44,545 nucleotides of DNA, taken from assembly GCF_003334385.1 (NCBI RefSeq), contig NZ_QOWN01000035.1; one strand, given 5' to 3'. The translations under genes and the position numbers were made by a program. This document shows, piece by piece, positions 1,656-39,040 of this stretch; the stretch's first letter is position 1; each line of letters opens with the position of its first letter. Below the pieces are notes generated by a model, which saw nothing but the letters and a program-made list of their open reading frames with translations, made no database searches and was not told where the DNA came from. This DNA is from Escherichia coli. GTDB lineage: Bacteria; Pseudomonadota; Gammaproteobacteria; Enterobacterales; Enterobacteriaceae.

Positions 1656-1775
1656 AGGACGGATAAGGCGTTTACGCCGCATCCGGCAACAGATGCCTGA
1701 TGCGACGCTACCGCGTCTTATCAGGCCTACAAAATCCGAACCGTTGGACGGATCAGGCGTTTACGCTACGTCCAG
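1656..1775. repeat. REP/BIME palindromic units
   Basis: Imperfect palindromes of the REP type (gcctgatgcgacgct...gcgtcttatcaggcctac; ggacggataaggcgtttacgcc) in an intergenic gap. Confidence 0.6.
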
Positions 1776-3104: not shown

Positions 3105-4067
<963 letters not shown>

Positions 4068-6917: not shown

Positions 6918-7040
<123 letters not shown>

Positions 7041-8671: not shown

Positions 8672-12062
<3,391 letters not shown>

Positions 12063-12070
<8 letters not shown>

Positions 12071-13196
12071 CCCGATCCTGTCCTGGCGTCGCGTACGGGC
12101 GCTGTGCGTTAAAGAGACGCGGCAGATCGTTCGCGATCCGAGTAGCTGGCTGATTGCGGTAGTGATCCCGCTGCTACTGCTGTTTATTTTTGGTTACGGC
12201 ATTAACCTCGACTCCAGCAAGCTGCGGGTCGGGATTTTACTGGAACAGCGTAGCGAAGCGGCGCTGGATTTCACCCACACCATGACCGGTTCGCCCTACA
12301 TCGACGCCACCATCAGCGATAACCGTCAGGAACTGATCGCCAAAATGCAGGCGGGGAAAATTCGCGGTCTGGTGGTTATTCCGGTGGATTTTGCGGAACA
12401 GATGGAGCGCGCCAACGCCACCGCACCGATTCAGGTGATCACCGACGGCAGTGAGCCGAATACCGCTAACTTTGTACAGGGGTATGTCGAAGGGATCTGG
12501 CAGATCTGGCAAATGCAGCGAGCGGAGGACAACGGGCAGACTTTTGAACCGCTTATTGATGTACAAACCCGCTACTGGTTTAACCCGGCGGCGATTAGCC
12601 AGCACTTCATTATCCCCGGTGCGGTGACCATTATCATGACGGTCATCGGCGCGATTCTCACCTCGCTGGTGGTGGCGCGAGAATGGGAACGCGGCACCAT
12701 GGAGGCTCTGCTCTCTACGGAGATTACCCGCACGGAACTGCTGCTGTGTAAGCTGATCCCTTATTACTTTCTCGGGATGCTGGCGATGTTGCTGTGTATG
12801 CTGGTGTCAGTGTTTATTCTCGGCGTGCCGTATCGCGGGTCGCTGCTGATTCTGTTTTTTATCTCCAGCCTGTTTTTACTCAGTACCCTGGGGATGGGGC
12901 TGCTGATTTCCACGATTACCCGCAACCAGTTCAATGCCGCTCAGGTCGCCCTGAACGCCGCTTTTCTGCCGTCGATTATGCTTTCCGGCTTTATTTTTCA
13001 GATCGACAGTATGCCCGCGGTGATCCGCGCGGTGACGTACATTATTCCCGCTCGTTATTTCGTCAGCACCCTGCAAAGCCTGTTCCTCGCCGGGAATATT
13101 CCAGTGGTGCTGGTGGTAAACGTGCTGTTTTTGATCGCTTCGGCGGTGATGTTTATCGGCCTGACGTGGCTGAAAACCAAACGTCGGCTGGATTAG
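12063..13196 (+). CDS. ybhS: ABC-2 type transporter permease, 377 aa
   Basis: Multi-pass membrane protein after an N-terminal soluble region; overlaps the ybhF stop; K-12 order ybhG-F-S-R. Confidence 0.85.
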
Positions 13197-16817: not shown

Positions 16818-17773
16818 TGAGTAAATCACACCCGCGCTGGCGCTTAGCAAAGAAGATCCTCACCTGGCTGTTTTTTATCGCGGTGATTGTGTTGCTGGTG
16901 GTCTACGCCAAAAAAGTGGACTGGGAAGAGGTCTGGAAGGTCATCCGCGACTACAATCGCGTTGCGCTGCTTAGTGCGGTCGGGCTGGTGGTCGTCAGCT
17001 ATCTGATTTACGGCTGCTATGACCTGCTCGCCCGCTTTTACTGCGGTCACAAACTGGCGAAGCGCCAGGTGATGCTGGTGTCGTTTATCTGCTACGCCTT
17101 CAACCTGACGCTCAGTACCTGGGTCGGCGGCATTGGTATGCGCTATCGTTTGTACTCTCGTCTGGGGTTGCCCGGTAGCACTATTACGCGGATTTTCTCG
17201 CTCAGTATTACCACCAACTGGCTGGGCTACATTTTACTGGCAGGGATTATCTTTACCGCAGGCGTGGTGGAGTTGCCGGATCACTGGTATGTCGATCAAA
17301 CTACGCTGCGTATTCTCGGCATTGGCTTACTGATGATTATCGCGGTTTATTTGTGGTTTTGCGCTTTCGCGAAGCACCGCCATATGACCATCAAAGGGCA
17401 AAAGCTGGTGCTGCCTTCATGGAAATTCGCCCTCGCTCAGATGCTGATTTCCAGCGTTAACTGGATGGTAATGGGGGCGATTATCTGGCTGTTACTTGGT
17501 CAAAGCGTGAACTATTTCTTTGTACTGGGCGTGTTACTGGTTAGTAGTATTGCTGGCGTCATCGTGCATATTCCGGCGGGGATCGGTGTGCTGGAAGCGG
17601 TGTTTATCGCACTACTGGCTGGGGAGCATACCTCCAAAGGTACAATTATCGCCGCCCTACTCGCTTACCGTGTGCTGTATTACTTTATCCCACTGCTGCT
17701 GGCGCTGATCTGTTACCTGTTGCTGGAAAGCCAGGCGAAGAAGCTACGGGCGAAAAATGAAGCGGCGATGTGA
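16817..17773 (+). CDS. ybhN: inner membrane protein (lysylphosphatidylglycerol-synthase-like transmembrane domain family), 318 aa
   Basis: Polytopic membrane protein; start overlaps the clsB stop, as in the K-12 operon. Confidence 0.8.
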   Translation: MSKSHPRWRLAKKILTWLFFIAVIVLLVVYAKKVDWEEVWKVIRDYNRVALLSAVGLVVVSYLIYGCYDLLARFYCGHKLAKRQVMLVSFICYAFNLTLSTWVGGIGMRYRLYSRLGLPGSTITRIFSLSITTNWLGYILLAGIIFTAGVVELPDHWYVDQTTLRILGIGLLMIIAVYLWFCAFAKHRHMTIKGQKLVLPSWKFALAQMLISSVNWMVMGAIIWLLLGQSVNYFFVLGVLLVSSIAGVIVHIPAGIGVLEAVFIALLAGEHTSKGTIIAALLAYRVLYYFIPLLLALICYLLLESQAKKLRAKNEAAM

Positions 17774-17808
17774 AGTTTAGTTAAGTTCTTTAGTATGTGC
17801 ATTTACGG

Positions 17809-18522
17809 CTAATGAAAAAAACGCGTATGCCTTTGCCAGACAAGCGTTATAGCTATCGCGGCAAGTATCCCAAAGAAGCCGATAAAATAGTAATAGAGTG
17901 TTAATGCACCTGTAAAAGCGCAACGAACCGGACTCCACAACTCTTCACTATGGCATTTCCCCGCCAATTCAAGGAGCTTATTTCGTCCATGCGAGATAAT
18001 GCCTGACCATAACACAATCATTAAGCAACTTATTACCCAAATGGGCCGTTCACTCATTAATGCCGCATTCACGATGATTACCAGGGCCAACCCTGTCAAC
18101 GTCATCATAATGATAAAACGGTGAGAACCAGGATCAACATTAAATAATAAACCGGCCAGCATACTGATTAAAAACATCGCGCCCGCAGTGCTGAACACGA
18201 TGATAATGGCATATACAGGAACTAAACTTGCAACGACAATCGCCACCAAAGAGAGTAAAAACAGATATATTACGCCCGCGATGGCGGCATTTATCTTGTT
18301 GATATCCTTACTTAAGCCATACATACAAAGTAATAATAACCCTATGGCGACATACATTGGTGGTGAATCATATTTGGTTGCCGTAATTTCGAGATACTTA
18401 GCTCCCCAGGCTAGTCCTGCGGTTGCCACCAAACCTAAAGCGGTAATGAGCCATATACCGTTTAATATCCTGGCCTCGTGCTGAAAATCTAATTTATTGC
18501 TGTTTTGCGAGTATGATTCCAT
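17809..18522 (-). CDS. ybhM: BAX inhibitor-1/YccA-like inner membrane protein, 237 aa
   Basis: Seven hydrophobic segments; paralogous architecture to ybhL; noticeably more AT-rich than its flanks. Confidence 0.7.
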   Translation of the reverse strand: MESYSQNSNKLDFQHEARILNGIWLITALGLVATAGLAWGAKYLEITATKYDSPPMYVAIGLLLLCMYGLSKDINKINAAIAGVIYLFLLSLVAIVVASLVPVYAIIIVFSTAGAMFLISMLAGLLFNVDPGSHRFIIMMTLTGLALVIIVNAALMSERPIWVISCLMIVLWSGIISHGRNKLLELAGKCHSEELWSPVRCAFTGALTLYYYFIGFFGILAAIAITLVWQRHTRFFH

Positions 18523-18689
18523 TCTTTTAGTTATCCTTAGAAAAAATATTAATATTCACCATCAATAAATTTAAAACCACGCATACAAAATACTTTTGCA
18601 TTTATGGATACAGAAAACGCTTCCGCTCGTCCATAAGGCATATTTTATACCTGGTACTTGTTAAGTGTCGTTTTTAGTAAGAAAAAAAT

Positions 18690-18710
18690 CCCGACACATG
18701 GCCGGGATAG
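18690..18710 (-). terminator. Rho-independent terminator candidate for ybhL
   Basis: On the minus strand, hairpin ATCCCG-gccatgtgt-CGGGAT followed by TTTTTTT, just downstream of the ybhL stop. Confidence 0.5.
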
Positions 18711-18726
18711 TGATGGTGAAAAAGAA

Positions 18727-19431
18727 TTAACGGCGGTTGCCGAAGATCCGCAACAACATCAGGAACAGGTTGATGAAGTCCAGATACAAGGTTAACGCGC
18801 CAAGAATGGAATATTTGCGCAGGTTCGACGTGTCGCGGGTATCAATCTGCTCACCCATATTTTTCAGTTTCTGCGTGTCATACGCCGTCAATCCGACAAA
18901 GACAATCACGCCGATGTAGGTAACTGCCCACATCAATGCTTCGCTTTTCAACCAGAAGTTGACCAGCGATGCCAGCACAATGCCGATTAACGCCATAAAC
19001 AGCATATTGCCAAAGCCACTTAAATCGCGCTTCGTGGTGTAACCGTACAGGCTCATTGCGCCGAACATCCCGGCAGTAACGACGAAAGTACTGGCGATAG
19101 AAGCAGCGGTATAGACAATGAATATACTGGAAAGCGTAAGACCCGTCAGCGCCGAATAAAGCATAAAGAGCATCGTCGTTACACCTGCGCTCAGCTTTTG
19201 AATCATCGCTGATAACACAATAACCAATGCTAATTGCGCGATGATCAGACCGATTAAAAAGACACGGTTAGTGAACAACAGCTCCATCACGGCCGCGGAA
19301 TTAGCCGCATACCAGGCAACAAATGCGGTCAGCAACAAGCCAACGGTCATCCAGCCATAGACTTGAGCCATATAAGTTTGCAAGCCAGCCCGGGGTTGTA
19401 CGATTGAATCAGAACGTGGGAATCTGTCCAT
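18727..19431 (-). CDS. ybhL: BAX inhibitor-1 family inner membrane protein, 234 aa
   Basis: Seven-helix membrane protein with the family's conserved C-terminal charged region; K-12 position next to the moa operon. Confidence 0.8.
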   Translation of the reverse strand: MDRFPRSDSIVQPRAGLQTYMAQVYGWMTVGLLLTAFVAWYAANSAAVMELLFTNRVFLIGLIIAQLALVIVLSAMIQKLSAGVTTMLFMLYSALTGLTLSSIFIVYTAASIASTFVVTAGMFGAMSLYGYTTKRDLSGFGNMLFMALIGIVLASLVNFWLKSEALMWAVTYIGVIVFVGLTAYDTQKLKNMGEQIDTRDTSNLRKYSILGALTLYLDFINLFLMLLRIFGNRR

Positions 19432-19567
19432 GACGATCTCCTGAAGATATAAGGAATATCTTAAGGATACTGCAAAATGATGAGGCTGTGCATCGACGCA
19501 GCGTAAACGTATGTACTGAGCGGTGAAATTGCCGGACGCAGCGGTGCCTTATCCGGCTAACAAAAAA

Positions 19568-20020
19568 CTACCAGCGTTTTGCCGCCTGCTGATCGCTCTC
19601 CCGAGCTTCAACCCAGCGGTCGCCTTCCGGCGTGGCTTCGCGCTTCCAGAACGGTGCGCGGGTTTTGAGATAATCCATAATAAACTGCCCGGCTTCAAAC
19701 GCACTGCTGCGATGCGCACTGGTGACACCGACAAAAACGATTTCATCGCCCGGCCATAATTCCCCGATGCGGTGAATCACAGTGACGCGCCCCAGCGGCC
19801 AGCGGTTACGCGCTTCATCAACAATTTCTGCCAGTGCTTTTTCAGTCATCCCCGGATAGTGTTCGAGGGTTAATGCGTTGACGCTGTCGCCCAGGTTATG
19901 GTTGCGCACCTTACCAGTAAAGGTGACTACCGCACCGTCTTCGTCACGCTCCGCCAGCCACGGGTACTCTTCTCCTACGCTGAACGGCTGCGGACCAACA
20001 ACAATTTTGGTTTCTGCCAT
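19568..20020 (-). CDS. moaE: molybdopterin synthase catalytic subunit, 150 aa
   Basis: Full-length match to MoaE; last gene of moaABCDE. Confidence 0.9.
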   Translation of the reverse strand: MAETKIVVGPQPFSVGEEYPWLAERDEDGAVVTFTGKVRNHNLGDSVNALTLEHYPGMTEKALAEIVDEARNRWPLGRVTVIHRIGELWPGDEIVFVGVTSAHRSSAFEAGQFIMDYLKTRAPFWKREATPEGDRWVEARESDQQAAKRW

Positions 20021-20021
20021 C

Positions 20022-20267
20022 TTAACCTCCGGTTACCGGCGGGAAGAAAGCTACTTCGTCGCCGTCAGTCAGCGGATGGTCAAAACTCACCAGCGTCTGG
20101 TTGACGGCAGCCAGTAATTTGCCATCTTCCAGCGCCAGCGCCCAGCGATCGCTCTGCGCAGCCATGTGCTGGCGTAACGCTTCAACAGTTGGGAAATCCG
20201 CAGCCACTTCGGTTGCATCTGTTCCCACCAACTCGCGCACCTGGGCGAAAAAAAGAACTTTAATCAT
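20022..20267 (-). CDS. moaD: molybdopterin synthase sulfur-carrier subunit, 81 aa
   Basis: ORF 20022..20330 contains [21 protein letters not shown]...FFPPVTGG with the C-terminal GG typical of MoaD; start taken at the internal Met. Confidence 0.85.
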
Positions 20268-21281: not shown

Positions 21282-22271
21282 TTAGCCGCCAATGTACGAT
21301 AAGTTTTGCGTAATACCGGTGTTGTTTTGATGCAGGAAATGGGTCTGTTTCTTCTCCCGCAGCGCCGCTGAAATACGCGCTTCCAGCGCCTGTTGCTGGG
21401 TATCGTCTTCCAGCAGATCGCGCAGGTTAACGCCGCCTTCACCAAACAGGCAGAGATGGAGTTTACCAATGGAGGAAACGCGCAGGCGGTTGCAAGTGGC
21501 GCAGAAGTCTTTTTCATACGGCATGATAAGGCCAATCTCTCCGGCGTAATCTGGATGGCAAAAGACTTGCGCGGGACCGTCGCTGCGTTGACGTAATTGG
21601 TGGATCCAGCCGCGACGCAGTAGCTCGTCACGCAGAACCTGACCAGAGATGTGATGCTTACGGAAGAGCTCGCTGCCCTCGCCCGTTTCCATCAGTTCGA
21701 TGAAACGCAGCTGGATAGGGCGATGCTGGATCCAGTTCAGAAAGGTGTCGAGCTGGTGATGATTAACATCACGCATCAGCACGGTATTGACTTTGACCTT
21801 CTCAAAACCGGCCTCAAATGCAGCATCAATCCCTGCCATGACCTGGTTGAATTTATCCTGCCCGGTAATAGCGTGAAACTGGCGGGCGTCCAGACTGTCG
21901 ACACTGACGTTAATGCCAGTAAGTCCCGCATCGCGCCAGCTCGCCACATCGCGTTCCAGACGGTAACCATTGGTTGTGACCGCAATCTGGCGGATAGCGT
22001 CGTTTTCCCGCACAGCGGCGATGATATCGGTAAAGTCGCGGCGTAAAGACGGCTCTCCTCCTGTCAGGCGCACTTTTTCGGTGCCCAGACTGGCGAAGGC
22101 GCGCGTAACCCGGCGAATTTCATCGACGGTAAGAAAGCCTTTATTGGTGACGCCGCTCGGTTTGTAGCCATCCGGCAGGCAGTAGGTGCAACGAAAGTTA
22201 CACACATCGGTAATCGACAGGCGCAAGTAGTAAAACTTACGCGCAAATGCATCAGTCAGTTGTGAAGCCAT
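21282..22271 (-). CDS. moaA: GTP 3',8-cyclase (radical SAM), 329 aa
   Basis: CNFRCTYC radical-SAM cysteine motif and C-terminal Fe-S cysteines; start taken at [19 protein letters not shown] (ORF 21282..22352 is N-terminally extended). Confidence 0.9.
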
Positions 22272-22275
22272 GTAC

Positions 22276-22420
22276 ACCTTTCCAGATACGGGAGGCGAAG
22301 TCATTTCTTCCTTCGCCCTGGTGGCAATCTTTACGAGCATTGTCACGGCCAAAGCACCGTATCAGTTGACCCAGGTGCAGAGGCTAGAGTGTTTAGTGGT
22401 TATGCCGATACTAGCGTGTA
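22276..22420 (-). ncRNA. Probable Moco riboswitch in the moaA 5' leader
   Basis: Placement from established knowledge that the E. coli moaABCDE leader carries the Moco RNA motif; I have not verified the conserved structure by folding, and the boundaries are approximate. Confidence 0.4.
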
Positions 22421-23626: not shown

Positions 23627-23740
23627 TGTTTATGCCGGATGCGGCGTGAACGCCTTATCCGGCCTACAAACCGCGCAAATTCAATATATTGCGGAGAAAA
23701 TGTAGGCCTGATAAGCGTAGCGCATCAGGCTGTTTTCCGT
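23627..23740. repeat. RIP-type BIME (second copy)
   Basis: gccggatgcggcgtgaacgccttatccggcctac ... caaattcaatatattgc ... gtaggcctgataagcgtagcgcatcaggc; same orientation as, and nearly identical to, 6918..7040. Confidence 0.65.
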
Positions 23741-27045: not shown

Positions 27046-27793
27046 GAGCAATCACTCCCAAAAAAAGATGATACGTCAGAGGATATCGCCCCTGCTGTTG
27101 CGGCCAGGCCAGTTGCAATCGCTGCAACTGCGAACGCGTTAATATTCGCGGGTCGCGCCCTTCATGAAGATGCGTGGCACCGATGCCTTTCAGCGAACGC
27201 ATGGCACTGAGCGCATCATCAAACCACAGCGTGATGGGCTGAATATGATGTTGATAATGCACGCCGTTCAGCGACTGTTCGATTTCATCTGGCGGTAAAA
27301 AGCGATTAGCATGCGGACGCTCGTCCACCGCCTGCCACGCCTGATGCAGTTCGGGTAACGATCCCTGCACCAGCGTGGTAAACGCGACCACGCCTTTGGG
27401 GCGCACCACCCGATACAGCTCGCGGAGTGCCGTGGATAAATTACCGCACCACTGCACTGCGAGATTGCTCCATGCAAGATCGAACGTCGCAGTCGCTAAC
27501 GGCAGGGATTCGATATCTCCCGCCAGATAATGGTCTGCGGCATCCTTCTGGCGTGCCTGAACAAGCATTGGCGGCGAGAGATCTAAGGCCGTCACCTGCG
27601 CGTGACGTTCCCGCCAGTGGCGGCTCATCCAGCCAGGTCCACAACCCGCGTCCAGTACGTGGGTGTATTTACGCTGTGGAAGCATTGCCAGTAAGGCGTC
27701 AGCACTCTGGCGCTGTAGATCTGCATGTTGCTCATAGTGTGCGGCTGCCCGACCAAATGCCGCTGCAATGGCTTGTTTATTAACCGTTGCCAT
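27038..27793 (-). CDS. bioC: malonyl-ACP O-methyltransferase, 251 aa
   Basis: SAM-methyltransferase motif (VLDAGCGPG); start taken at [13 protein letters not shown]...; overlaps bioD. Confidence 0.9.
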
Positions 27794-31405: not shown

Positions 31406-31882
31406 ATGAAACTCATCAGTAACGATCTGCGCGATGGCGATAAATTGCCGCATCGTCATGTCTTTAACGGCATGGGTTACGATGGCGATAATATTTCACC
31501 GCATCTGGCGTGGGATGATGTTCCTGCGGGAACGAAAAGTTTTGTTGTCACCTGCTACGACCCGGATGCGCCAACCGGCTCCGGCTGGTGGCACTGGGTA
31601 GTTGTTAACTTACCCGCTGATACCCGCGTATTACCGCAAGGGTTTGGCTCTGGTCTGGTAGCAATGCCAGACGGCGTTTTGCAGACGCGTACCGACTTTG
31701 GTAAAACCGGGTACGATGGCGCAGCACCGCCGAAAGGCGAAACTCATCGCTACATTTTTACCGTTCACGCGCTGGATATAGAACGTATTGATGTCGATGA
31801 AGGTGCCAGCGGCGCGATGGTCGGGTTTAACGTTCATTTCCACTCTCTGGCAAGCGCCTCGATTACTGCGATGTTTAGTTAA
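31406..31882 (+). CDS. ybhB: PEBP/Raf-kinase-inhibitor-like family protein, 158 aa
   Basis: Full-length match to K-12 YbhB; the last host gene before attB-lambda. Confidence 0.85.
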   Translation: MKLISNDLRDGDKLPHRHVFNGMGYDGDNISPHLAWDDVPAGTKSFVVTCYDPDAPTGSGWWHWVVVNLPADTRVLPQGFGSGLVAMPDGVLQTRTDFGKTGYDGAAPPKGETHRYIFTVHALDIERIDVDEGASGAMVGFNVHFHSLASASITAMFS

Positions 31883-31890
31883 TCACTCTG

Positions 31891-31913
31891 CCAGATGGCG
31901 CAATGCCATCTGG
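31891..31913 (+). terminator. Perfect hairpin downstream of ybhB, possible terminator
   Basis: CCAGATGGC-gcaat-GCCATCTGG (9-bp stem); the downstream T-tract is weak, so terminator function is uncertain. Confidence 0.4.
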
Positions 31914-31972
31914 TATCACTTAAAGGTATTAAAAACAACTTTTTGTCTTTTTACCTTCCCGTTTCGCTCAAG

Positions 31973-32125
31973 TTAGTATAAAAAAGCTGAACGCGAAACA
32001 TTAAAAACCATTAATATCAATGTGTTACAATATCTTTAGTCTAAAAAATAGACTACATGATGCTACAAAACACAACATATCCAGTCACTATGAATCAACT
32101 ACTTAGATGGTATTAGTGACCTGTA
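31973..32125. other. Prophage attR: lambda-type core plus P arm
   Basis: Core TTAGTATAAAAAAGC is the reverse complement of the lambda core GCTTTTTTATACTAA. The host side matches attB (cgctcaag); the phage side resembles the lambda P arm (cagtcactatgaatcaactacttagatggtattagtgacctgtaacagagcattagcgcaagg) with scattered substitutions. Confidence 0.85.
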
Positions 32126-32612
32126 ACAGAGCATTAGCGCAAGGTGATTTTTTGTCTTCTTGCGCTAATTTTTTGTCAAACACATTACGTCGTTTGCTGA
32201 ATTTACAACCATGCTCAGTATCTCGATAAGCGCAGAGAAATGATGCAATGGTGGGCGGAATGGCTTGATGGGAAGGCTGAGTAATTAATCTTTAATCAGA
32301 GGGTAACAATGCATGGCTCAGTGAACTAAGCCAATCATTTGTGATCTCCAATTGTTAATCTTATTAGTTCTAGATACTTGATTTATGCCATGATGCTTGT
32401 AGATTAGAAAGCAGTAGACTATACAACACTGCGGTCAAATAATTATCAAGCATAATCACGGTATACACATTTTTTTGATAGCGTAAGGATAGTGAGCCAT
32501 CGATGCCATATTCAATATTTATGCAATTTAAGCATGGTTTATATACACTAATTTTCTTAGTGCCCACAAAATCTTTGATTGTACAAAAAACACAGGGGTA
32601 ATGGAGATTTTT

Positions 32613-33779
32613 ATGTTTGACGGATTTAATGGCTTTTTAATTGCTTCTTTATCGGTGATTACTTCACTTTCTGTTGCAAGAATATTTGTCACAGAAACAC
32701 ATTTATCACCTATCAAAGGAAGGAGTGAATCAATTGATGGGCTTAGAGGATTTCTTGCTTTAATGGTTTTCCTTCATCATTCCAGTTTCTGGTGGCAATA
32801 CATACATACTGGGGTTTGGTCTGATCCTGATTCGTTATTTTATACTAATATTGGAAAAATAGCTGTTATTTTCTTTTTTATGATTACAGGCTTCTTGTTC
32901 TTCGGGAAATTGATTTCGAATAAATCAGTAAATTGGGAAGATTTATTTTGGTCAAGAATAATGAGACTAACACCTATGTATCTGGTTTCGTTATCTCTAC
33001 TATTCATAATTGTGTTCTATGTTTCTGATTGGAAAATTAACACAGGAATTGACAATCTCATAATATCTATGGCGAGATGGGTTCCTTTTTCTTTCCTTGG
33101 AATGCCTGATGTTAACGGTCTTCACAAGACGTCGCTTATCATGGCCGGAGTTCCGTGGTCACTTGTTTATGAATGGTTTTTTTATTTATCTCTTCCTTTT
33201 ATGGCTTTTATAATGAGAAGAGACAAATTTAATACTTACACAATTCTTAGTATTGCGAGTGTATTTGCTTTTATTTTCTATCCATCATTAAAAATACATA
33301 TTTTATCATTTGTTTTTGGTTATCTGGCAGCAAAAATAAATCACAAACTGTCTAACGGCTTGCCTTTCAATAAAATATTATCAAGCTTATTCGTCATCGT
33401 TATCTTATGTGTAACTTGTTTTTTAATTCCAAATCCTTACAATCCAATAACAATATCACTCTGTGGTATTGCATTTATTATGATATCAAATGGATGCGAT
33501 ATTTTTGGAGTTCTTAAGATAAAAACCTGTCAAGTTTTTGGAGAAGCTACATATAGCATGTATCTTCTACATGGCATTATACTTTTTATAACATTTAAAA
33601 TAATACTTCCGGTTAGCTATGTTAATCAAATTAACAGCCTTGTATTTTCAGCTATTATTATAATCCTCTCTGGGTTTATCACGCTTATATCATTACTATG
33701 TTTTAGATATATTGAGACACCGTGTAGTAAGTTTAAAAAATTTAATGTACTAACATACACAAGAAGAAAACTTCAGTAA
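32613..33779 (+). CDS. acyltransferase-3 family membrane protein, probable O-antigen O-acetyltransferase (Oac-like), about 388 aa
   Basis: About 10 hydrophobic segments and the AT3 motif R...HH (IDGLRGFLALMVFLHHSS); very AT-rich; sits between the tailspike and att like serotype-conversion genes of P22-like phages. Start at 32613 preferred (GGAG 6 nt upstream) over 32601. Confidence 0.7.
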   Translation: MFDGFNGFLIASLSVITSLSVARIFVTETHLSPIKGRSESIDGLRGFLALMVFLHHSSFWWQYIHTGVWSDPDSLFYTNIGKIAVIFFFMITGFLFFGKLISNKSVNWEDLFWSRIMRLTPMYLVSLSLLFIIVFYVSDWKINTGIDNLIISMARWVPFSFLGMPDVNGLHKTSLIMAGVPWSLVYEWFFYLSLPFMAFIMRRDKFNTYTILSIASVFAFIFYPSLKIHILSFVFGYLAAKINHKLSNGLPFNKILSSLFVIVILCVTCFLIPNPYNPITISLCGIAFIMISNGCDIFGVLKIKTCQVFGEATYSMYLLHGIILFITFKIILPVSYVNQINSLVFSAIIIILSGFITLISLLCFRYIETPCSKFKKFNVLTYTRRKLQ

Positions 33780-33814
33780 AACCACCTCACAAATGAGATG
33801 GTTGTTGGTAATAA

Positions 33815-33838
33815 AAAGGCGGGCGTGGGCTCGCCTTT
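33815..33838. terminator. Bidirectional Rho-independent terminator between convergent acyltransferase and tailspike genes
   Basis: aaaaaGGCG-ggcgtgggct-CGCCtttt: GC stem flanked by an A-run and a T-run, usable from either strand. Confidence 0.55.
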
Positions 33839-36175
33839 TCAGATTGGATAATTACTTACTCTAACATCAGCAAAACTAGTTGTTCCTGTCAAGGAAATAT
33901 CCATGCGTTCATCACAAGCAGGAGCAAGAAAAACCTCTACAGCTACACATTCTGATCTTTTAACATGATATATTGCCTGACGCTCAAGCCACGAATTATC
34001 AGATAATAATTTTATTGCAGTATTAGATAACGAATTACCTGTAGAATCCAATTCGCGAAAAATGACCGCCGATGATATTGATGTTTCTGATAACGTCCAT
34101 AGTCTTACATAGACAGCACTTCGTTGAGCTACTCGAAGTGTTGCCACTAATAAACTCTGTACTGATGCGGTATTCTTATCGTTAAGAGTGAATGCATAAG
34201 GCGTACCTACAGGCTTTGTAGTTGCATCTGTTTTCTCTGGCGCAATAGATATAACAGTCTGAAAAAATCTATCCTGATTAGCTAGAATATGACCAGCTAT
34301 GGAACGCATCGGTAGAGGGTTAGTACTATGGACAGCATCACTTCTTCCAACACGAAAACCACCGCCTGTATTCTGGCTATTGGCAGTGATAAATACGTCT
34401 TGGTTATTGTCTACAAACACTTCACCTGAACACGAACTAGTTATGATCTTACCTACAGAGTTAAATCTTGGTTTTATCTCTTGATTGTCAATTCCGCTAA
34501 TTAGTCCAGGCACAAATTCGAATGATACACCAACACCGTTACAGCTAACAGCCGTGATATCTTCAACGTTGATGTCATACCCATTGACAATGCGTACCGC
34601 ATTATTGTTTACCCTTTCGGCATAGACATTTTTAATTCGAATGTGCTGTGATTGGAAGTATGTAGACTCAGAAGGATACGAGTAATTAGTCACGAATATA
34701 CCAGCCAAGCCAGCCACACTGGTTGCTGCAGCAACATACTTTCCACCAAGAACATCAATATTCTCTCCTTGAATTTCAAGAAAATTTTTAGTTGCTTTTG
34801 ATTTTCCTGTTTGAATTCCGATATTGCCAGCAAGGAATACACCACGGCGTGAACCATCCGTAGAGTGATGGCAATCGTTCATGTCGAATGTTTTGCATGC
34901 ATCGATAACCCAATTTTCGCAACCTCTCTTAAAGTCATTCAATGTACGATGGCCGAAAGCAGTGTTGCCGAAACTGAAGATGTTTTTAATGGTATATGTA
35001 CCGTATTCGCCAGGTGAATCAATAGAGCCATTCATACACTTAAATGCATTGAATCCAACAGCGGTAAGCATTGGGTCTGTTCCCTCTGATGAACAATACA
35101 AATAATTAATACCATCAATCATTCCACCATTAGTTGTGTATCCTTCCCATGCTTCATGTGGGCAGTTTTTGAAATGACATCTTAAAGCAGTAATATTGCG
35201 ACCAATGGCACCGTTATTGAAATGCCAGCAGAATGCGCGAATAATCTTCTGCGGCGCAATGTTATTTATTTCGTAACCGTCTTGGTATTGTCCATCAAAA
35301 CAAATATCCTGCAGCATCGCAAAATATAGATCCTTGTCAGGGTTCTTACGGATGAACCAAGAGTAATAGCCAAAGCCATTATTCTCAACGTCTTGCTTTG
35401 TTAGTGAGATTGGTCTGATAGTAGTACTTGACTTACCTGCACCAATCCAATGAAACCAGTCGCCAATTTGCACACTACCACTAAACGAGATCACATCTAT
35501 ACCTCTAAAATCTAGAGGAACCCTTTTATATTCTGATAATATTTGTAATTTATTTATTACCGATGCGCAGTCAACTCCGCTCTGAATGTAGCGACTGCAC
35601 ATGATCGCATCATTGAAATTAGAACCATCCATGACGCATAACCATTGACTATTAAGATTTGGATTTTCTGTTGGCGCTACAGTTTTCGGAAGGGAACCAA
35701 GCCATTGGTAATAAAGTCCATCAGTGTATTTAAGGACCTGTTTTCTATTGGTAATAGTATATCCAGACGCAAAATCGCCATCAATTATTCGACTGTATTC
35801 TGATATTTCGAAATTTCCCTTTGCCCACAAGGAAAACTGATCAGGATCATACTTCAGAACATTCGGAAAATAGAACTGCTGCGCTCCATATGCATCATAA
35901 ACAGCCATCGAATGACCTTGCACAGTTACAAACTTGGCAATCTGCCCGTTATATACAGGATATCCAGCAGCGTTAATGATGATTGGTTGCGATACAGGAA
36001 CATGAGAGCCGTCTTCGTTCTCCACATAAACCTGGATCTGGTTTTCAGTATTTACCGGATCAGTGTCAATTTTTCCGATATAAATCTTTCCATTAGCTAC
36101 GGCTTTAAAAGAACGAGCCATAGTGAAGAGTTGCGAAGGCATGCTTACCACAACATTTGCGGTGATATCTGACAT
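33839..36175 (-). CDS. tailspike protein: P22 gp9-like N-terminal head-binding domain plus divergent receptor-binding domain, about 778 aa
   Basis: From the second ATG (GGAG 7 nt upstream): [42 protein letters not shown]...[15 protein letters not shown]...LKYDPDQFS closely resembles the P22/HK620 tailspike N-terminus; the remaining ~650 aa are divergent and AT-rich. Confidence 0.85.
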
Positions 36176-36270
36176 TTCATTGCTCCAGACGAATGATATG
36201 ATGCAACCATGATGTGATTGCATACCGAAATGGTACTATTGAGTATTTATCCAGTAGGTTACGATGCCAT

Positions 36271-36288
36271 TCCACCCAACTGGTGAGG
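36271..36288. promoter_or_regulatory. Imperfect palindrome, candidate Mnt operator in the tailspike/mnt divergent region
   Basis: tCCACC-caact-GGTGag resembles the half-sites of the P22 Mnt operator (TCCAC...GTGGA). Inference only. Confidence 0.3.
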
Positions 36289-36296
36289 CATCAAGG

Positions 36297-36557
36297 ATGT
36301 ACAGCAAATACGACGAGGCGCAGTTTCACTTGAGACTTCCGCATGAACTCCACGCGAAAATTAAGCAGCGTGCGAAGATGAATAACAGGTCGCTGAACTC
36401 AGAGATAATTGCAGCGATGGAGGAATCATTGGATAAACAAAGCTCTGCATCAGTTTACATTGACGATGCAGAGCGTATGGCAGAACAACAATCTGATATG
36501 GTTAAGAAAATTGTCTTTGATACGCTCAAGAAGCTATATAAAAAAGACAGCAGATAA
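36297..36557 (+). CDS. mnt: Mnt-like ribbon-helix-helix repressor, about 86 aa
   Basis: QFHLRLPHELHAKIKQRAKMNNRSLNSEIIAAMEESL...NDAERMAEQQSDMVKKIVFDTLKKLYKK aligns with recalled P22 Mnt (HFNFRMPMEVREKLKFRAEANGRSMNSELLQIV...DAERLADEQSELVKKMVFDTLKDLYKK). Start at the internal Met preferred; the ORF could begin at 36264. Confidence 0.8.
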   Translation: MYSKYDEAQFHLRLPHELHAKIKQRAKMNNRSLNSEIIAAMEESLDKQSSASVYIDDAERMAEQQSDMVKKIVFDTLKKLYKKDSR

Positions 36558-36646
36558 CCATCCGTTACGGAGGATTTATGCACAGAGATATGCTGAATAT
36601 TGCGTTCTACATATTTGGTTTTTACACGTTCCTGGTGTTTGCGAAG

Positions 36647-39040
36647 CTATTCTGACAGCGCATCAGACTTAGCCCCCTGAGTCAGGGCGTTAATGGCCTT
36701 TTGTGCCTGCTGCATGGCTTTCTCGAACGCTGTTGATCCGCGTGGGGTGTTTGCCATTCGGAGCATTGCATTTCTGAATGGCTCGCTCTCATAGGCGCGA
36801 GTAAGAAGTCCGTAGCTTACCGCTGCGCCAGTTGTCGCAGGGTTCATTGCCGTCCCATACCCGATAATGAACGGGATGGTTTGCTGCCCTGTTGGTGTTG
36901 TTACTGCCGCTTTTGCAGCCTGCTGCGTGGATTGCAGGTAGTTTTTCAATCCTTTCAGATAAGCAGCGTCCTGCCCCTTAAATGTGATGCCAGTCTGGTT
37001 TTGCAGGATGTTAAGCTGCCGAAGGAACTGGTCAGGGGATCCGCCAGATTTCTCCATCGCCTTTCCAATGATGCCATTGCGCATTTGCGCCCTGCCAACA
37101 CGACCAACTGAGTTATACAGCGTCTTAATTTCCGATTTGTTCTTGCTGAATAGCATGTTGTTGACAACTTCCGGCGTCAGATCGCCTTTCATGAGAACAT
37201 TCTTCAGCCTGGTATTCTTTAGTTTCGCGGCTTCGTCAGCGTAGACGGCATTGGCCTGCTGATATTTACGGAGAGTATCGTTGCCAAGATTCTGACCAAT
37301 GGCACCATTGATATCGTCGGTCATTGCCTTGTAAACGCGCTGAATGGCAGCATCGGAACGGTTTGGTAACACTGGTCGCTCACCCTTCACGTCCATTCTG
37401 AACTGGCTGCGCAGATCGCTTAATTGCTTCAAATCCAGATTTACCGGACCATCAGGACCAGCATTGCGAACAAGCTCATCACGATATGACTGAAGTTTTG
37501 AAATTGTCTCGTTATCAGCGACCTTACCAAGCTTCTGCAGATTAGATATTTCTGTATCAATCTGCTGAATTGCTCGCGCTGGCTGAATGTTTACTCCAGC
37601 CATAGCATTCTGAACCTGCTCCAGTCGATTACCGGCGGCACGACGAATTCCTGATGTTTTCGCTTTAAGGCTGTCAATAACAACCGCTGGATCATACTCA
37701 CCGAATTTATCGGCAAATCTCTGCACCAACTGGCTTCTCGCTTCCTGTTGCGTTGCTCTCATTCCGCTTGTGCCAGCCAGGGGGATATTTTCTGCTGTAG
37801 TCTGCGCCATTTTCCCGACGCGGGAAGTAGGCTGTAACAGGTCTGTGGTGTGCAGAGGAACTCCTTCACGCTCTGCAAACCTGATAGCCTGTTGAGCTTC
37901 TGGTGCTATCGAACCACGAACACCACGATAAGCAGAACCTAATCCACGTCCGGCAGCGTTAATAGCACCGCCAGCCAGCACACCAACGCCTAAATCGGTG
38001 GCGAGTGCTTCCGCATCATCTTTCGCACTGTTTGCAGCAAGTGATCCAACTGCGTTTTCTGCTAGAAGGCGAGTTGCCCCCTGAGCAATTCGACCAGCAA
38101 GTGTTGGTGACTGTGTTGCCGCTCTCTCAACGCCAGCAGGAGTGAGGTAAGGCAATGCTTCAGCAAATACCCTTCCCTCTGTCGTTTGTGGAGTCAGCGC
38201 GCCTTGCTGAAGGCCAAAGTCCTGCTCTAATCCCTGCGTTGTTACTCGTGGTGCTGGTTGATATGTACCATCGCCAATGCCGAGTTTACCTCCAGCCCAA
38301 GCCGCCGCGCTTGTTACAGCATCAGTGAGTTCAGCAGGTATGTTCGCTACGTTGATTCCTGCCTGTAGTAAGCCGCGCCCGGTTTCAGCAAGTCCATTAC
38401 CAAGGTCAGACATTATTCCGCCTTGCTGCTGAACAGGTTTCGGTGCGACAGAACTTACGGGTTGAGGTGGCTGCTGACTGGCTGCCTGCTGCTCAATCTG
38501 AGCAAATGGATTATTTGGGTCTGACTGCACGCCTGATGCCGATACTTGTTCGGATGACTGTGCTTCCAGTTGTGCAAACGGGTTGTTAGGGTCTTGCTGA
38601 GGATGTACCTTTGCAGAGGTGGCGCGCTGTTCGACTGTTGAGTCTGTCACCGGGTCACCCGCCCATTGAGCAAAGCGATCATCAACGTAACCGCGGCCTT
38701 CAGATCCTGGCGTATATTCACCACGCTTTGCCTTCATAACGTTGCCGGGACCGTCGTGATAAGCCTGAAGAGCGTCACGCCAGTTACCAAACTGCTGGTA
38801 CATCTTTGCCAGATAGCGCGCGCCAGCGTCAGCCTGATATTCGGGGTTTTGCATTTGCTCATCGGTATAACCCATATCACGCCATGTCCCAGGCATGACC
38901 TGAGTCAATCCTACAGCCCCGGCGGAGCTTACTGCGGCAGGGTTGTAAGAAGACTCCTTGGCACCCAGTGCAGTCATCAACCCTTCTGGCACACCGTAAC
39001 GTGCGCCAGCCTGCTCTAACAAATCACGGTAATTAGCCAT
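36647..39040 (-). CDS. virion ejection/internal protein at the P22 gp16 position, with an N-terminal lytic transglycosylase (SLT) domain, 797 aa
   Basis: N-terminus carries an SLT-like catalytic motif (GAKESSYNPAAVSSAGAVGLTQVMPGTW...YLAKMY), followed by a tandem DPNNPFAQ(L/I)E repeat and a long Ala/Gln-rich region; last gene of the ejection-protein block. Confidence 0.7.
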   Translation of the reverse strand: MANYRDLLEQAGARYGVPEGLMTALGAKESSYNPAAVSSAGAVGLTQVMPGTWRDMGYTDEQMQNPEYQADAGARYLAKMYQQFGNWRDALQAYHDGPGNVMKAKRGEYTPGSEGRGYVDDRFAQWAGDPVTDSTVEQRATSAKVHPQQDPNNPFAQLEAQSSEQVSASGVQSDPNNPFAQIEQQAASQQPPQPVSSVAPKPVQQQGGIMSDLGNGLAETGRGLLQAGINVANIPAELTDAVTSAAAWAGGKLGIGDGTYQPAPRVTTQGLEQDFGLQQGALTPQTTEGRVFAEALPYLTPAGVERAATQSPTLAGRIAQGATRLLAENAVGSLAANSAKDDAEALATDLGVGVLAGGAINAAGRGLGSAYRGVRGSIAPEAQQAIRFAEREGVPLHTTDLLQPTSRVGKMAQTTAENIPLAGTSGMRATQQEARSQLVQRFADKFGEYDPAVVIDSLKAKTSGIRRAAGNRLEQVQNAMAGVNIQPARAIQQIDTEISNLQKLGKVADNETISKLQSYRDELVRNAGPDGPVNLDLKQLSDLRSQFRMDVKGERPVLPNRSDAAIQRVYKAMTDDINGAIGQNLGNDTLRKYQQANAVYADEAAKLKNTRLKNVLMKGDLTPEVVNNMLFSKNKSEIKTLYNSVGRVGRAQMRNGIIGKAMEKSGGSPDQFLRQLNILQNQTGITFKGQDAAYLKGLKNYLQSTQQAAKAAVTTPTGQQTIPFIIGYGTAMNPATTGAAVSYGLLTRAYESEPFRNAMLRMANTPRGSTAFEKAMQQAQKAINALTQGAKSDALSE

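What the first reader, a model, noticed from the sequence alone, without database searches (positions are those of the whole stretch)
32200..35900. AT-rich host-recognition cassette: Oac-like acyltransferase plus a swapped tailspike receptor-binding domain
From about 32.2 kb to the middle of the tailspike gene the DNA is conspicuously AT-rich compared with the rest of the prophage and with the host. The shift occurs inside the tailspike ORF: the N-terminal head-binding domain (to about ...LKYDPDQFS) is P22-like, and the remaining ~650 residues are divergent. The adjacent convergent gene encodes an acyltransferase-3 membrane protein with the R...HH motif, the type used by P22-like phages to O-acetylate O-antigen. 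Together they look like a horizontally acquired module that sets which O-antigen the phage binds and then modifies that receptor in the lysogen. Which serotype is involved cannot be read from the sequence.
Basis: partly seen in the sequence, partly recalled or inferred. Interest (0 to 1): 0.6.

Follow-up and report, generated by a model that had tools for sequence, protein, structure and literature searches.

The report
Swappable phage tailspike plus O-antigen acetylase
At the end of a P22-like prophage sits an ordinary but cleanly delimited host-recognition cassette, made of a tailspike receptor-binding domain and an OacB-type O-antigen acetyltransferase, that has been copied almost unchanged between two different prophage backbones and probably targets a rare O48-related E. 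coli O-antigen.

Summary
A low-GC island is present, but it spans 31,871-36,630, wider than reported. Its GC is 0.37, against 0.53 in the rest of the contig. The GC step is not inside the tailspike gene. A mosaic junction does lie there. A 3.6-kb block (32,201 to about 35,845) is 99.4% identical to a block in a different P22-like prophage at argW. The adjoining head-binding domain is only 90% identical.

The block contains:
- an 85-nt remnant of an Sf6-type intS gene;
- a 388-aa AT3 acyltransferase;
- a bidirectional terminator hairpin;
- tailspike residues from about 116 to 778.

The acyltransferase is 40% identical to the characterised Sf101 OacB. It keeps 6 of OacB's 7 critical residues and its 11-helix layout. 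It is only distantly related to Sf6 Oac.

The receptor-binding domain is predicted to be a beta-helix depolymerase-like fold. It belongs to a small family with no Pfam model or solved structure.

Among 5,426 complete E. coli genomes this domain family occurs in two. Both carry the same rare O48-related O-antigen cluster, which only three genomes have.

In other temperate phages the slot downstream of this domain holds OacB-type AT3, another AT3, or gtrABC.

Verdict: a new member of a well-known kind. Interest is modest.

The parts
31973..31987 (.). attR core of a lambda-type attachment site (TTAGTATAAAAAAGC, the reverse complement of GCTTTTTTATACTAA). This is the host/prophage boundary just after ybhB.
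   Evidence: It aligns to lambda misc_recomb 27724-27738. Identity breaks on the host side exactly at the core.
31988..32178 (+). Lambda-type P arm of attP. It includes a sib/tI-like terminator hairpin (32133-32169) followed by a T run.
   Evidence: It aligns to the reverse complement of lambda 27,5xx-27,723 and is near-identical from 32,08x to 32,178. The same arm is present in the sister prophage L002.
32201..32285 (+). Remnant of the last 85 nt of an Sf6-type integrase gene (intS), ending ...MMQWWAEWLDGKAE*. It is the left homology anchor of the cassette.
   Evidence: It is invariant in the alignment with the full-length intS of 18KM2445 and Sf6, and with the annotated pseudogene remnant in JNE170426.
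32286..32612 (+). Non-coding leader of the acyltransferase gene. In the integrated state it must hold the gene's own promoter, which was not identified.
   Evidence: It is 98-100% identical to 18KM2445 and unrelated to the sister prophage and to Sf6. Promoter-like hits are no more frequent than in shuffled sequence.
32613..33779 (+). AT3-only membrane acyltransferase of 388 aa, OacB-type. It is the predicted O-antigen O-acetyltransferase responsible for seroconversion.
   Evidence: PF01757 E = 6.2e-29; PHROG 3333 O-acetyltransferase, E = 8.5e-53. It is 40% identical to Sf101 OacB over 376 aa, E = 2e-89. R45, H56, W69, F96, R115 and R118 are conserved. The AF2 model has pLDDT 92 and 11 TM helices.
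33780..33839 (.). Gap between the convergent genes. It holds two hairpins, and the second (33814-33839, A-run/GC stem/T-run) looks like a bidirectional intrinsic terminator.
   Evidence: RNA fold gives -28.1 kcal/mol with z = -3.6 against shuffles. Sf6 has an annotated terminator at the same place.
33839..34255 (-). Tailspike C-terminal beta-sandwich domain (aa ~641-778) plus the stop codon.
   Evidence: AF2 model with pLDDT > 90 and all-beta strands over aa 647-774. It is conserved in the family alignment A1.
34256..35608 (-). Tailspike right-handed parallel beta-helix (aa ~190-640), the predicted glycan-binding and depolymerase domain. It carries the invariant motif N433-D-C-H-H-S-T-D440-G.
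35609..35830 (-). Tailspike linker plus the Tail_spike_N (TSP1/gp66-type) domain, aa ~116-189.
   Evidence: PF18668 E = 3.1e-5 over aa 130-172. A profile of the family hits the N-terminal domains of CBA120-type tailspikes in the PDB.
35583..35845 (.). Interval that contains the right-hand recombination junction of the cassette, at the hinge between the head-binding and receptor-binding domains.
   Evidence: There are no mismatches to 18KM2445 between 35,583 and 35,845. There are then 35 mismatches in the 345 nt of the head-binding domain.
35831..36175 (-). Tailspike head-binding domain (aa 1-115). It belongs to the prophage backbone and serves as the right homology anchor.
   Evidence: PF09008 E = 2.6e-66. 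Amino-acid identity is 91% to Sf6 and 94% to Sf101. Nucleotide identity to 18KM2445 is only 89.9%, against 99.4% for the cassette.

Best explanation
WHAT IT IS
This is the host-recognition and seroconversion cassette of a P22-like (Sf101/Sf6-like) prophage integrated at the lambda attachment site between ybhB and the gal side.

HOW IT LIKELY WORKS
- The tailspike is anchored to the virion by a conserved head-binding domain.
- Its beta-helix receptor-binding domain binds, and probably cleaves, the repeat units of one particular O-antigen. The predicted target is a rare O48-related, rhamnose-containing type.
- In the lysogen, the convergent OacB-type AT3 enzyme is expressed from its own promoter. 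It passes an acetyl group from cytoplasmic acetyl-CoA across the inner membrane onto that same O-antigen.
- The cognate tailspike, on this phage and on relatives, then no longer recognises or cuts the O-antigen. The result is seroconversion with superinfection exclusion.

HOW IT MOVES
The two genes travel as one unit. Homologous recombination occurs between two conserved anchors: the 3' end of an Sf6-type int gene, and the hinge at the end of the head-binding domain.

SHOWN VERSUS INFERRED
- Shown: gene identities, motifs, predicted folds, cassette boundaries, transfer between backbones, and linkage to one O-antigen gene cluster.
- Inferred: O-antigen as the substrate of both proteins, acetyl as the group transferred, the blocking effect, and expression in the lysogen.
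For: 1. Exchange as one block. Window 32,201-35,830 is 99.4% identical to a prophage at argW in strain 18KM2445. Identity falls to 90% in the head-binding domain and to background outside it. The same cassette with a full intS is in GCA_030357955.1.
2. Alternative cassettes in the same slot. Sister prophages at att-lambda have the same attR, P arm and intS remnant but a 328-aa AT3 and a 632-aa tailspike.
3. Synteny with characterised systems. Sf6 has int-oac-terminator-tailspike. Sf101 has SLT-gp16, mnt-like gene, tailspike, oacB and int.
4. Homology to a characterised enzyme. The AT3 is 40% identical over 376 aa to Sf101 OacB, an enzyme shown to O-acetylate Shigella O-antigen (PMC4159516, PMC8952252). 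Six of its seven experimentally critical residues are conserved (R45, H56, W69, F96, R115, R118). The 11-TM layout also matches (PMC8952252). The R/K-X10-H and RXXR motifs are those named for AT3 proteins in PMC9558356. The best solved fold match is the transmembrane acetyl-CoA transferase HGSNAT.
5. Receptor-binding domain fold. It is predicted to be a beta-helix tailspike or depolymerase-like fold.
6. Link to an O-antigen type. In 5,426 complete E. coli genomes the domain family occurs in only two: 18KM2445 and 2017.17.01CC. The two copies are 53% identical and sit in different phage types. Both genomes carry the same O-antigen cluster, which only three genomes have. By my arithmetic the chance of this is about 2e-7. 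Accession-number series also place the tailspike or AT3 and this wzy/wzx in the same draft assemblies at least five times (this is an inference).
7. Occupants of the downstream slot. In temperate phages that carry this domain family, the convergent slot holds the orthologous AT3 (L004, L009; AT3 65-67% and domain 55% identical), another AT3 (L005), or a gtrABC O-antigen glucosylation operon (L017, L018). Lytic T7-like and Drexlerviridae carriers have nothing there.
Against: - There is no biochemical or expression evidence.
- No promoter was identified for the AT3 gene. At 31% GC it could be H-NS-silenced.
- The O-type of the window's own genome (GCA_003334385.1) could not be determined.
- The third complete genome with this O-cluster has no such prophage.
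- One OacB-critical residue (S146) is Gly here.
- AT3 proteins also modify ECA, capsules, peptidoglycan and glucans (PMC9558356).
- Domain relatives occur in Enterobacter phages and in a phage propagated on rough BL21. Specificity within the family must therefore vary, or the spike is dispensable there.
- The pairing of this domain with this AT3 is not universal (L005, L017, L018).
- The prophage runs off the contig, so its integrity is unknown.
Confidence: 0.68

Rival explanations
1. The cassette targets a surface glycan other than O-antigen, such as a capsule, colanic acid, enterobacterial common antigen or another exopolysaccharide. The tailspike would depolymerise it and the AT3 would acylate it.
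For: Beta-helix depolymerases of capsule-specific phages are among the fold matches: K5 lyase, K1, K2 and K21 depolymerases, and the Phi92 colanidase. AT3-only enzymes modify ECA, capsules and glucans (PMC9558356). Domain relatives occur across Escherichia, Enterobacter, Xenorhabdus and Vibrio, and in a phage grown on O-antigen-less BL21.
Against: The domain family co-occurs with one rare O-antigen gene cluster in independent prophages. The same slot holds gtrABC in Enterobacter relatives, a system known for O-antigen glucosylation (PMC2629481). The closest characterised AT3 is an O-antigen acetylase. All characterised P22-like coliphage and Shigella phage spikes except CUS-3 bind O-antigen; that statement is from my own knowledge.
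Confidence: 0.12
2. The acyltransferase is a lysogenic-conversion moron whose modification is unrelated to the adjacent tailspike. It might change antigenicity, serum resistance or sensitivity to other phages, and its adjacency would reflect only a permissive insertion slot next to att.
For: The slot is occupied by unrelated modification genes in phages with similar receptor-binding domains. L005 has a 28%-identical AT3, and L017/L018 have gtrABC, at comparable domain identity of 50-53%. The same OacB-type AT3 subfamily sits next to an unrelated 804-aa tailspike in a Uetakevirus-like prophage. In Kapi1, the genes in this slot did not explain the O-antigen change (PMC8787464).
Against: The orthologous AT3 (65-67%) is retained next to the orthologous domain (55%) in two other, non-P22-like prophages. 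The two genes moved together at 99.4% identity between backbones. In Sf6 the Oac modification is reported to block the phage's own endorhamnosidase (PMC9558356).
Confidence: 0.14
3. The region is an inert relic. The prophage would be defective, and the AT-rich cassette transcriptionally silent or non-functional.
For: The contig ends inside the virion genes, so completeness is unknown. An integrase pseudogene remnant lies next to the cassette. No promoter is recognisable. GC is very low at 0.31.
Against: Both ORFs are full length relative to homologues, and all tested motifs are intact. The cassette is nearly identical in at least three backbones or assemblies and also occurs in E. albertii. 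The intS remnant is shared by sister prophages and marks an old int-module replacement, not decay of this cassette.
Confidence: 0.06

Closest known systems
Shigella phage Sf101: tailspike (gp15), OacB (gp16) and int
   Same: It is a P22-like phage with the same local order: SLT-gp16, mnt-like gene, tailspike, convergent AT3, then int. The head-binding domain is 94% identical. The AT3 is the same subfamily: 40% identity, an 11-TM layout with an extra N-terminal helix, and 6 of 7 critical residues (PMC8952252).
   Different: The receptor-binding domain is unrelated. The AT3 is 60% diverged and the counterpart of S146 is Gly. Sf101 integrates at sbcB (PMC4159516), whereas this prophage is at att-lambda. 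The predicted target O-antigen is different.
Shigella phage Sf6: gene 14 tailspike, oac (OacA) and intS
   Same: The architecture is the same: attP, int, oac promoter, oac, terminator, and a convergent tailspike. The window still carries the last 85 nt of an Sf6-type intS. The head-binding domain is 91% identical. It provides the mechanistic model in which acetylation of the O-antigen blocks the phage's own endorhamnosidase (PMC9558356).
   Different: The AT3 is only 30% identical over 107 aa and lacks the N-terminal extra helix. The receptor-binding domain is unrelated in sequence. The functional int/att module here is lambda-type.
P22 / epsilon34 tailspike followed by gtrABC
   Same: An O-antigen-modifying conversion cassette lies between the tailspike gene and att, is convergent to the tailspike, and is highly mobile between phage types (PMC2629481). 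Enterobacter relatives of this receptor-binding domain have gtrABC in exactly this slot.
   Different: The chemistry differs: glucosylation through three proteins versus a single AT3 acyltransferase.
Uetakevirus-type prophages (PhiV10-like) with tailspike plus Oac
   Same: A convergent AT3 lies directly after the tailspike. One E. coli example carries a 53%-identical domain (L005), and another carries a 42%-identical OacB-type AT3 (L025). PhiV10 Oac is cited as an O157 O-antigen acetylase in PMC9558356.
   Different: The virion type and N-terminal anchor differ, and there the slot is followed by lysis genes rather than att.
Beta-helix tailspike depolymerases (CBA120 TSP2-4, Sf6, P22, HK620, Klebsiella K2 depolymerases) and AlgE4-type beta-helices
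   Same: They share the predicted fold class: a right-handed parallel beta-helix with an N-terminal Tail_spike_N domain and a C-terminal beta-sandwich.
   Different: Identity is <= 12-22%. There is no profile-level sequence homology to AlgE4 (hhalign probability 0.08). The catalytic residues and chemistry are unknown.

Membership tests
Acyl_transf_3 (AT3, PF01757) membrane acyltransferases | Significant match to the Pfam AT3 profile over the whole domain | tested here: met
   E = 6.2e-29, residues 44-361 of the 392-aa ORF, model positions 3-318 of 326.
Acyl_transf_3 (AT3, PF01757) membrane acyltransferases | R/K-X10-H motif in TM1 and RXXR motif in the first cytoplasmic loop (as named in PMC9558356) | tested here: met
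   R45-X10-H56 and R115-I-M-R118 are present. All four residues are invariant in a 60-sequence alignment.
Acyl_transf_3 (AT3, PF01757) membrane acyltransferases | Polytopic membrane protein with a ~10-helix core and, for the AT3-only class, no fused SGNH domain | tested here: met
   The AF2 model (pLDDT 92, pTM 0.91) has 11 long helices. The protein ends at 388 aa and has a single Pfam domain.
OacB-type O-antigen O-acetyltransferases (Sf101 OacB) | Full-length sequence homology to OacB | tested here: met
   40% identity and 61% positives over 376 aa, E = 2e-89. It is the only characterised phage hit in 50,697 phage records.
OacB-type O-antigen O-acetyltransferases (Sf101 OacB) | The seven residues shown critical by mutagenesis: R47, H58, W71, F98, R116, R119, S146 (PMC8952252) | tested here: inconclusive
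   Six are conserved (R45, H56, W69, F96, R115, R118). The S146 counterpart is G145, with T144 adjacent (alignment, read by hand).
OacB-type O-antigen O-acetyltransferases (Sf101 OacB) | 11 TM segments with a periplasmic N-terminus (PMC8952252) | tested here: met
   An extra N-terminal helix, aa 4-29, precedes the canonical TM1. The extension is shared by the subfamily and absent from Sf6 Oac. Orientation in the membrane was not tested.
OacB-type O-antigen O-acetyltransferases (Sf101 OacB) | O-acetylation of an O-antigen sugar in vivo | not testable with these tools
   This needs LPS NMR or MS, or serology, on lysogen versus cured strain.
Sf6 Oac (OacA) orthologue | Sequence similarity over the whole protein | tested here: not met
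   Only 30% identity over 107 N-terminal residues, E = 1e-5.
P22-like (Lederbergvirus) tailspike | N-terminal head-binding domain | tested here: met
   PF09008 E = 2.6e-66 over aa 1-113. PDB hits to Sf6 gp14 and P22 gp9 cover only aa 1-125.
P22-like (Lederbergvirus) tailspike | Receptor-binding domain co-linear with the P22, Sf6 or HK620 spike | tested here: not met
   There is no significant alignment beyond aa 114-125 to the P22, Sf6 or Sf101 spikes.
Beta-helix tailspike depolymerases | Right-handed parallel beta-helix fold | tested here: met
Beta-helix tailspike depolymerases | Glycan-cleaving activity and identified catalytic residues | not testable with these tools
   Invariant acidic and His residues exist (D294, D354, E420, D434, H436, D440, E467), but they could not be mapped to a known active site. 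The AlgE4 comparison failed.
Lambda-type attachment site | 15-bp core identical to lambda attP/attB, with P-arm homology on the phage side only | tested here: met
   The core at 31973-31987 is identical. P-arm identity extends to 32,178, and the host side diverges at the core.

The most novel reading that the evidence does not exclude
The receptor-binding domain may found a small, uncharacterised depolymerase family. It has 65 cluster representatives among 1.84 billion proteins, no Pfam model and no solved structure, and it carries an invariant NDCHHSTDG motif. Its chemistry and specificity could be new, directed at an un-named O48-related, rhamnose-containing E. coli O-antigen. Its OacB-type partner could be co-adapted to it, so that the pair moves between podovirus-type and siphovirus-type prophages of Escherichia, E. 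albertii and Enterobacter as a 'key plus lock-changer' unit.
Probability: 0.2. Interest if true: 0.5.

Novelty: new member of a known kind. Interest (0 to 1): 0.3.

Why it matters
Tailspike-plus-seroconversion cassettes decide which strains a temperate phage can infect, and they change the serotype of the lysogen. This example matters for four reasons.
- It has unusually clear recombination end-points: an int remnant on one side and the head-binding hinge on the other.
- It supports the idea that prophage tailspike type can predict the host O-antigen type, here for a rare, un-named O48-related type.
- It extends the OacB branch of AT3 enzymes from Shigella to commensal or animal E. coli, E. 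albertii and Enterobacter prophages.
- It offers a candidate depolymerase and a candidate O-acetylase for a poorly studied O-antigen.
None of this changes current understanding. It is a well-documented new instance of a known kind.

Tried and rejected
- Rfam search of 31.7-36.7 kb at E <= 1 found no match. No tRNA or tRNA fragment was found in the window, so no argW-type att remnant could be shown.
- The promoter scan found 19 sites against 19.6 +/- 3.6 in shuffles. No promoter is claimed.
- Aligning the AT3 upstream regions with those of the Enterobacter and thrS-contig orthologues revealed LexA-box-like CTGTAT...ATACAG sites there. These are degenerate in the window, so SOS control is not proposed here.
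- NCBIfam gave only a weak hit to the AT3-like N-terminus of VanT. PDB sequence search for the AT3 found nothing. Foldseek found only HGSNAT, at E ~0.05.
- Literature searches for the E. coli O48 structure or an OgN name for this cluster found nothing usable.
- I could not link the window's own assembly to an O-type. The exact-match look-up lists too few places. Accession-series overlap gave only indirect support from other assemblies.
- The argW region of the third genome with the same O-cluster (JNEC-KY203) holds an unrelated degraded prophage.
- Synonymous versus non-synonymous counts between the two cassette copies were 3 versus 3 in the AT3. That is too few to say anything about selection.
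- GATC/Dam-OxyR phase-variation signature upstream of the AT3: by eye there is only one GATC, so I did not pursue it.

Full report
SETTING

The window is the whole contig QOWN01000035.1 (44,545 bp) of E. coli assembly GCA_003334385.1. Positions 1-31,882 are ordinary chromosome ending with bioA and ybhB.

At 31,973-31,987 lies the 15-bp lambda attachment core. It is followed by about 190 bp that align to the lambda P arm, including the sib/tI hairpin. This is therefore the attR end of a prophage sitting in the lambda site.

The prophage itself is P22-like. Reading inward from the tailspike, it encodes a Mnt/Arc-type repressor and a gp16-type ejection protein fused to a lytic transglycosylase. 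It then encodes gp20- and gp7-type ejection proteins, gp14, a tail needle with an Sf6-type knob, gp10 and gp4. The contig ends inside the virion genes.

THE OBSERVATION

The AT-rich island is real and large. The best two-breakpoint segmentation is 31,871-36,630 with GC 0.372. One-kb windows elsewhere average 0.528 +/- 0.032 and never fall below 0.410.

GC by segment:
- AT3 gene: 0.312
- receptor-binding part of the tailspike: 0.394
- head-binding domain: 0.420
- mnt-like gene: 0.429
- prophage backbone: 0.509

The compositional step at the right-hand side lies at the end of the ejection-protein gene, not inside the tailspike ORF. The only internal change point is the AT3/tailspike boundary at 33,780.

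Low GC is also generic for such cassettes. In five other phages the modification gene has GC 0.30-0.42 and the tailspike 0.38-0.44, against 0.47-0.57 for neighbouring genes. The O-unit genes of the presumed target O-antigen have GC 0.30.

THE MOSAIC JUNCTION

Among 5,426 complete E. coli genomes only one, the dog isolate 18KM2445, contains the cassette. There it lies in a different P22-like prophage at argW, next to a full-length intS gene. A base-by-base comparison shows:
- 22 mismatches in 3,630 nt (99.4% identity) from 32,201 to 35,830;
- no mismatch between 35,583 and 35,845;
- 35 mismatches in the 345 nt of the head-binding domain (89.9% identity);
- unrelated sequence beyond the start codon.

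On the left, homology starts at 32,196-32,201. At that point the lambda P arm abuts the last 85 nt of an Sf6-type intS gene.

Sister prophages at the lambda site, such as JNE170426, share the attR, the P arm, the intS remnant, the head-binding domain and the mnt-like gene. Between those anchors they carry an unrelated 328-aa AT3 and a 632-aa tailspike.

The cassette is thus a discrete exchangeable unit bounded by two conserved anchors. The intS remnant also shows that a lambda-type int/att module once replaced an Sf6-type one in this lineage.

THE ACYLTRANSFERASE

The likely start is the ATG at 32,613. It has a GGAG seven nucleotides upstream, and it matches the homologues and the RefSeq annotation of 18KM2445. 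The 388-aa product matches Pfam Acyl_transf_3 (E = 6.2e-29) and PHROG 3333 'O-acetyltransferase'.

It is only marginally similar to Sf6 Oac: 30% over 107 residues. The one characterised relative in 50,697 phage records is OacB of Shigella phage Sf101, at 40% identity over 376 residues, E = 2e-89. OacB O-acetylates rhamnose III, and GlcNAc, of the S. flexneri O-antigen (PMC4159516, PMC8952252).

Seven OacB residues were shown critical by mutagenesis (PMC8952252). Six are conserved here: R45, H56, W69, F96, R115 and R118. The S146 counterpart is Gly. R45-X10-H56 and R115-x-x-R118 are the two AT3 signature motifs named in PMC9558356, and they are invariant in 60 homologues.

A confident AlphaFold model (pLDDT 92) shows 11 membrane helices. 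These are the canonical core plus an extra N-terminal helix, matching the 11-segment topology reported for OacB. The nearest solved fold is human HGSNAT, a transmembrane acetyl-CoA-dependent acetyltransferase. That match is weak (E ~0.05, probability 0.95-0.97).

THE TAILSPIKE

Residues 1-113 are a textbook head-binding domain, 91% identical to Sf6 and 94% to Sf101. Residues 130-172 match the Tail_spike_N domain of CBA120-type spikes. The rest has no Pfam, NCBIfam or PDB sequence match.

With a 36-sequence alignment, AlphaFold models residues 130-778 at pLDDT > 90. The model has a capping helix, a long right-handed parallel beta-helix and a C-terminal beta-sandwich.

The family is small:
- 38 proteins in a word-seeded search of 5.8 billion;
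- 65 cluster representatives in an exhaustive search of 1.84 billion;
- four phage genomes among 50,697.

The same domain is grafted onto several N-terminal anchors: P22 head-binding domains, T7 fibre N-termini, tail-collar domains and Drexlerviridae lateral spikes.

WHAT THE CASSETTE RECOGNISES

The O-antigen locus of 18KM2445 runs rfbBDAC, three glycosyltransferases, wzx, a hypothetical or ATP-grasp gene, a glycosyltransferase, wzy and galE. It is shared at >= 98.9% identity by only three of the 5,426 complete genomes. The next relatives are O48-family clusters at 85% identity.

One of the other two genomes, 2017.17.01CC, is the only other complete genome with a member of this receptor-binding-domain family. 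That copy is 53% identical, in a different phage type, and is followed by a different AT3. Two independent acquisitions both landing among three genomes out of 5,426 has a chance probability of about 2e-7 by my arithmetic.

Consecutive GenBank protein accession series also place the tailspike or AT3 and this wzy/wzx in the same draft assemblies at least five times. This is an inference from the numbering.

The slot downstream of the domain is a seroconversion slot:
- orthologous AT3 in an Enterobacter hormaechei siphovirus-like prophage and in a contig next to thrS (AT3 65-67%, domain 55% identical);
- a different AT3 in 2017.17.01CC;
- gtrABC in two Enterobacter prophages;
- nothing in the lytic carriers.

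A 42%-identical member of the same AT3 subfamily sits next to an unrelated tailspike in a Uetakevirus-like prophage.

Together these results make O-antigen the most likely substrate of both proteins. They fit the Sf6/Sf101 model in which the prophage modifies the receptor that its own spike recognises (PMC9558356). None of this is biochemical proof.

OTHER ANATOMY

The 59-nt gap between the convergent genes folds into two hairpins (z = -3.6). The second has an A-run, a GC-rich stem and a T-run, as expected of a bidirectional terminator. Sf6 has an annotated terminator at the same place.

In the integrated state the AT3 gene is cut off from the phage int operon by the att site and the sib/tI hairpin. 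It therefore needs its own promoter within 32,179-32,612. I could not identify one above chance.

COMPARISON WITH WHAT IS KNOWN, AND VERDICT

The closest described system is Sf101, which has the same backbone neighbourhood and the same AT3 subfamily. Next come Sf6 (same architecture, source of the int remnant) and P22/epsilon34 (gtrABC in the same slot). The literature already states that such conversion cassettes and tailspike C-terminal domains are highly mobile (PMC2629481, PMC4159516, PMC10408124).

The finding is therefore a new member of a known kind. It has an uncharacterised receptor-binding-domain family, an OacB-type enzyme outside Shigella, sharply defined recombination end-points, and a testable prediction of the O-type. 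Interest is modest at 0.3.

Noticed in passing
window 31973-32178: A P22-like prophage uses the lambda attachment site. The 15-bp core is identical to lambda's, and a lambda-type P arm with the sib/tI hairpin lies on the phage side. The matching lambda-type int must be at the other prophage end, outside the contig.
   Followed up: yes
window 32201-32285: The last 85 nt of an Sf6-type intS gene are fused to the lambda P arm. The same remnant is annotated as a pseudogene in sister prophages. It is a scar of an old int/att module replacement that now serves as a recombination anchor.
   Followed up: yes
window 36647-39040 (-): A 797-aa ejection protein consists of an N-terminal SLT lytic transglycosylase domain, a tandem DPNNPFAQ(L/I)E repeat and a P22 gp16-like body. 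Sister prophages (L002, L012) have a 665-aa gp16 without the SLT domain. Sf101 gp13 appears to be of the fused type.
   Followed up: partly
window 36264-36557 (+): Only a Mnt/Arc-type repressor gene lies between the ejection genes and the tailspike. No arc or ant genes are present, unlike the 18KM2445 prophage. PHROG and Sf101 annotate this protein misleadingly as 'partition protein ATPase'.
   Followed up: partly
L004 ~9520-9560; L009 ~3850-3880; window 32459-32490: LexA-box-like CTGTAT-N-ATACAG sequences lie upstream of the orthologous AT3 genes in the Enterobacter and thrS-contig prophages. In L004 the site is next to a divergent S24 peptidase gene. The corresponding window sequence is degenerate.
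   Followed up: partly
window 32622-32699 (AT3 aa 4-29): The OacB-type subfamily has an extra N-terminal transmembrane helix before the canonical AT3 TM1. This would place the N-terminus in the periplasm. It is absent from Sf6 Oac and from the other AT3 proteins compared.
   Followed up: partly
window 34853-34879 (tailspike aa 433-441): The motif N-D-C-H-H-S-T-D-G is invariant or nearly so in 36 homologues of the receptor-binding domain. It is a candidate active site or metal site that could not be assigned to a known catalytic motif.
   Followed up: partly
L011 (18KM2445) 11909-12934 and 19106-20110: The rare O-antigen locus contains a hypothetical or ATP-grasp gene. This gene probably accounts for the ~13% of the query that the O48 clusters do not cover; I inferred this from its size and did not check it. 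An NAD-dependent epimerase also lies between ugd and wzzB. Together these hint at a uronic-acid or amino-acid-substituted O-unit.
   Followed up: no
window 22259-22403 (-), 1657-1727 (+), 6963-7005 (+), 23668-23709 (+): Expected chromosomal RNA elements are present: the Moco riboswitch upstream of moaA, plus naRNA4 and two ES036 REP-type sRNA matches.
   Followed up: no
window ~17600-18900: This is the lowest-GC stretch of the host part, at about 0.41 in 1-kb windows. It covers two minus-strand ORFs of about 235 aa. It was not examined.
   Followed up: no
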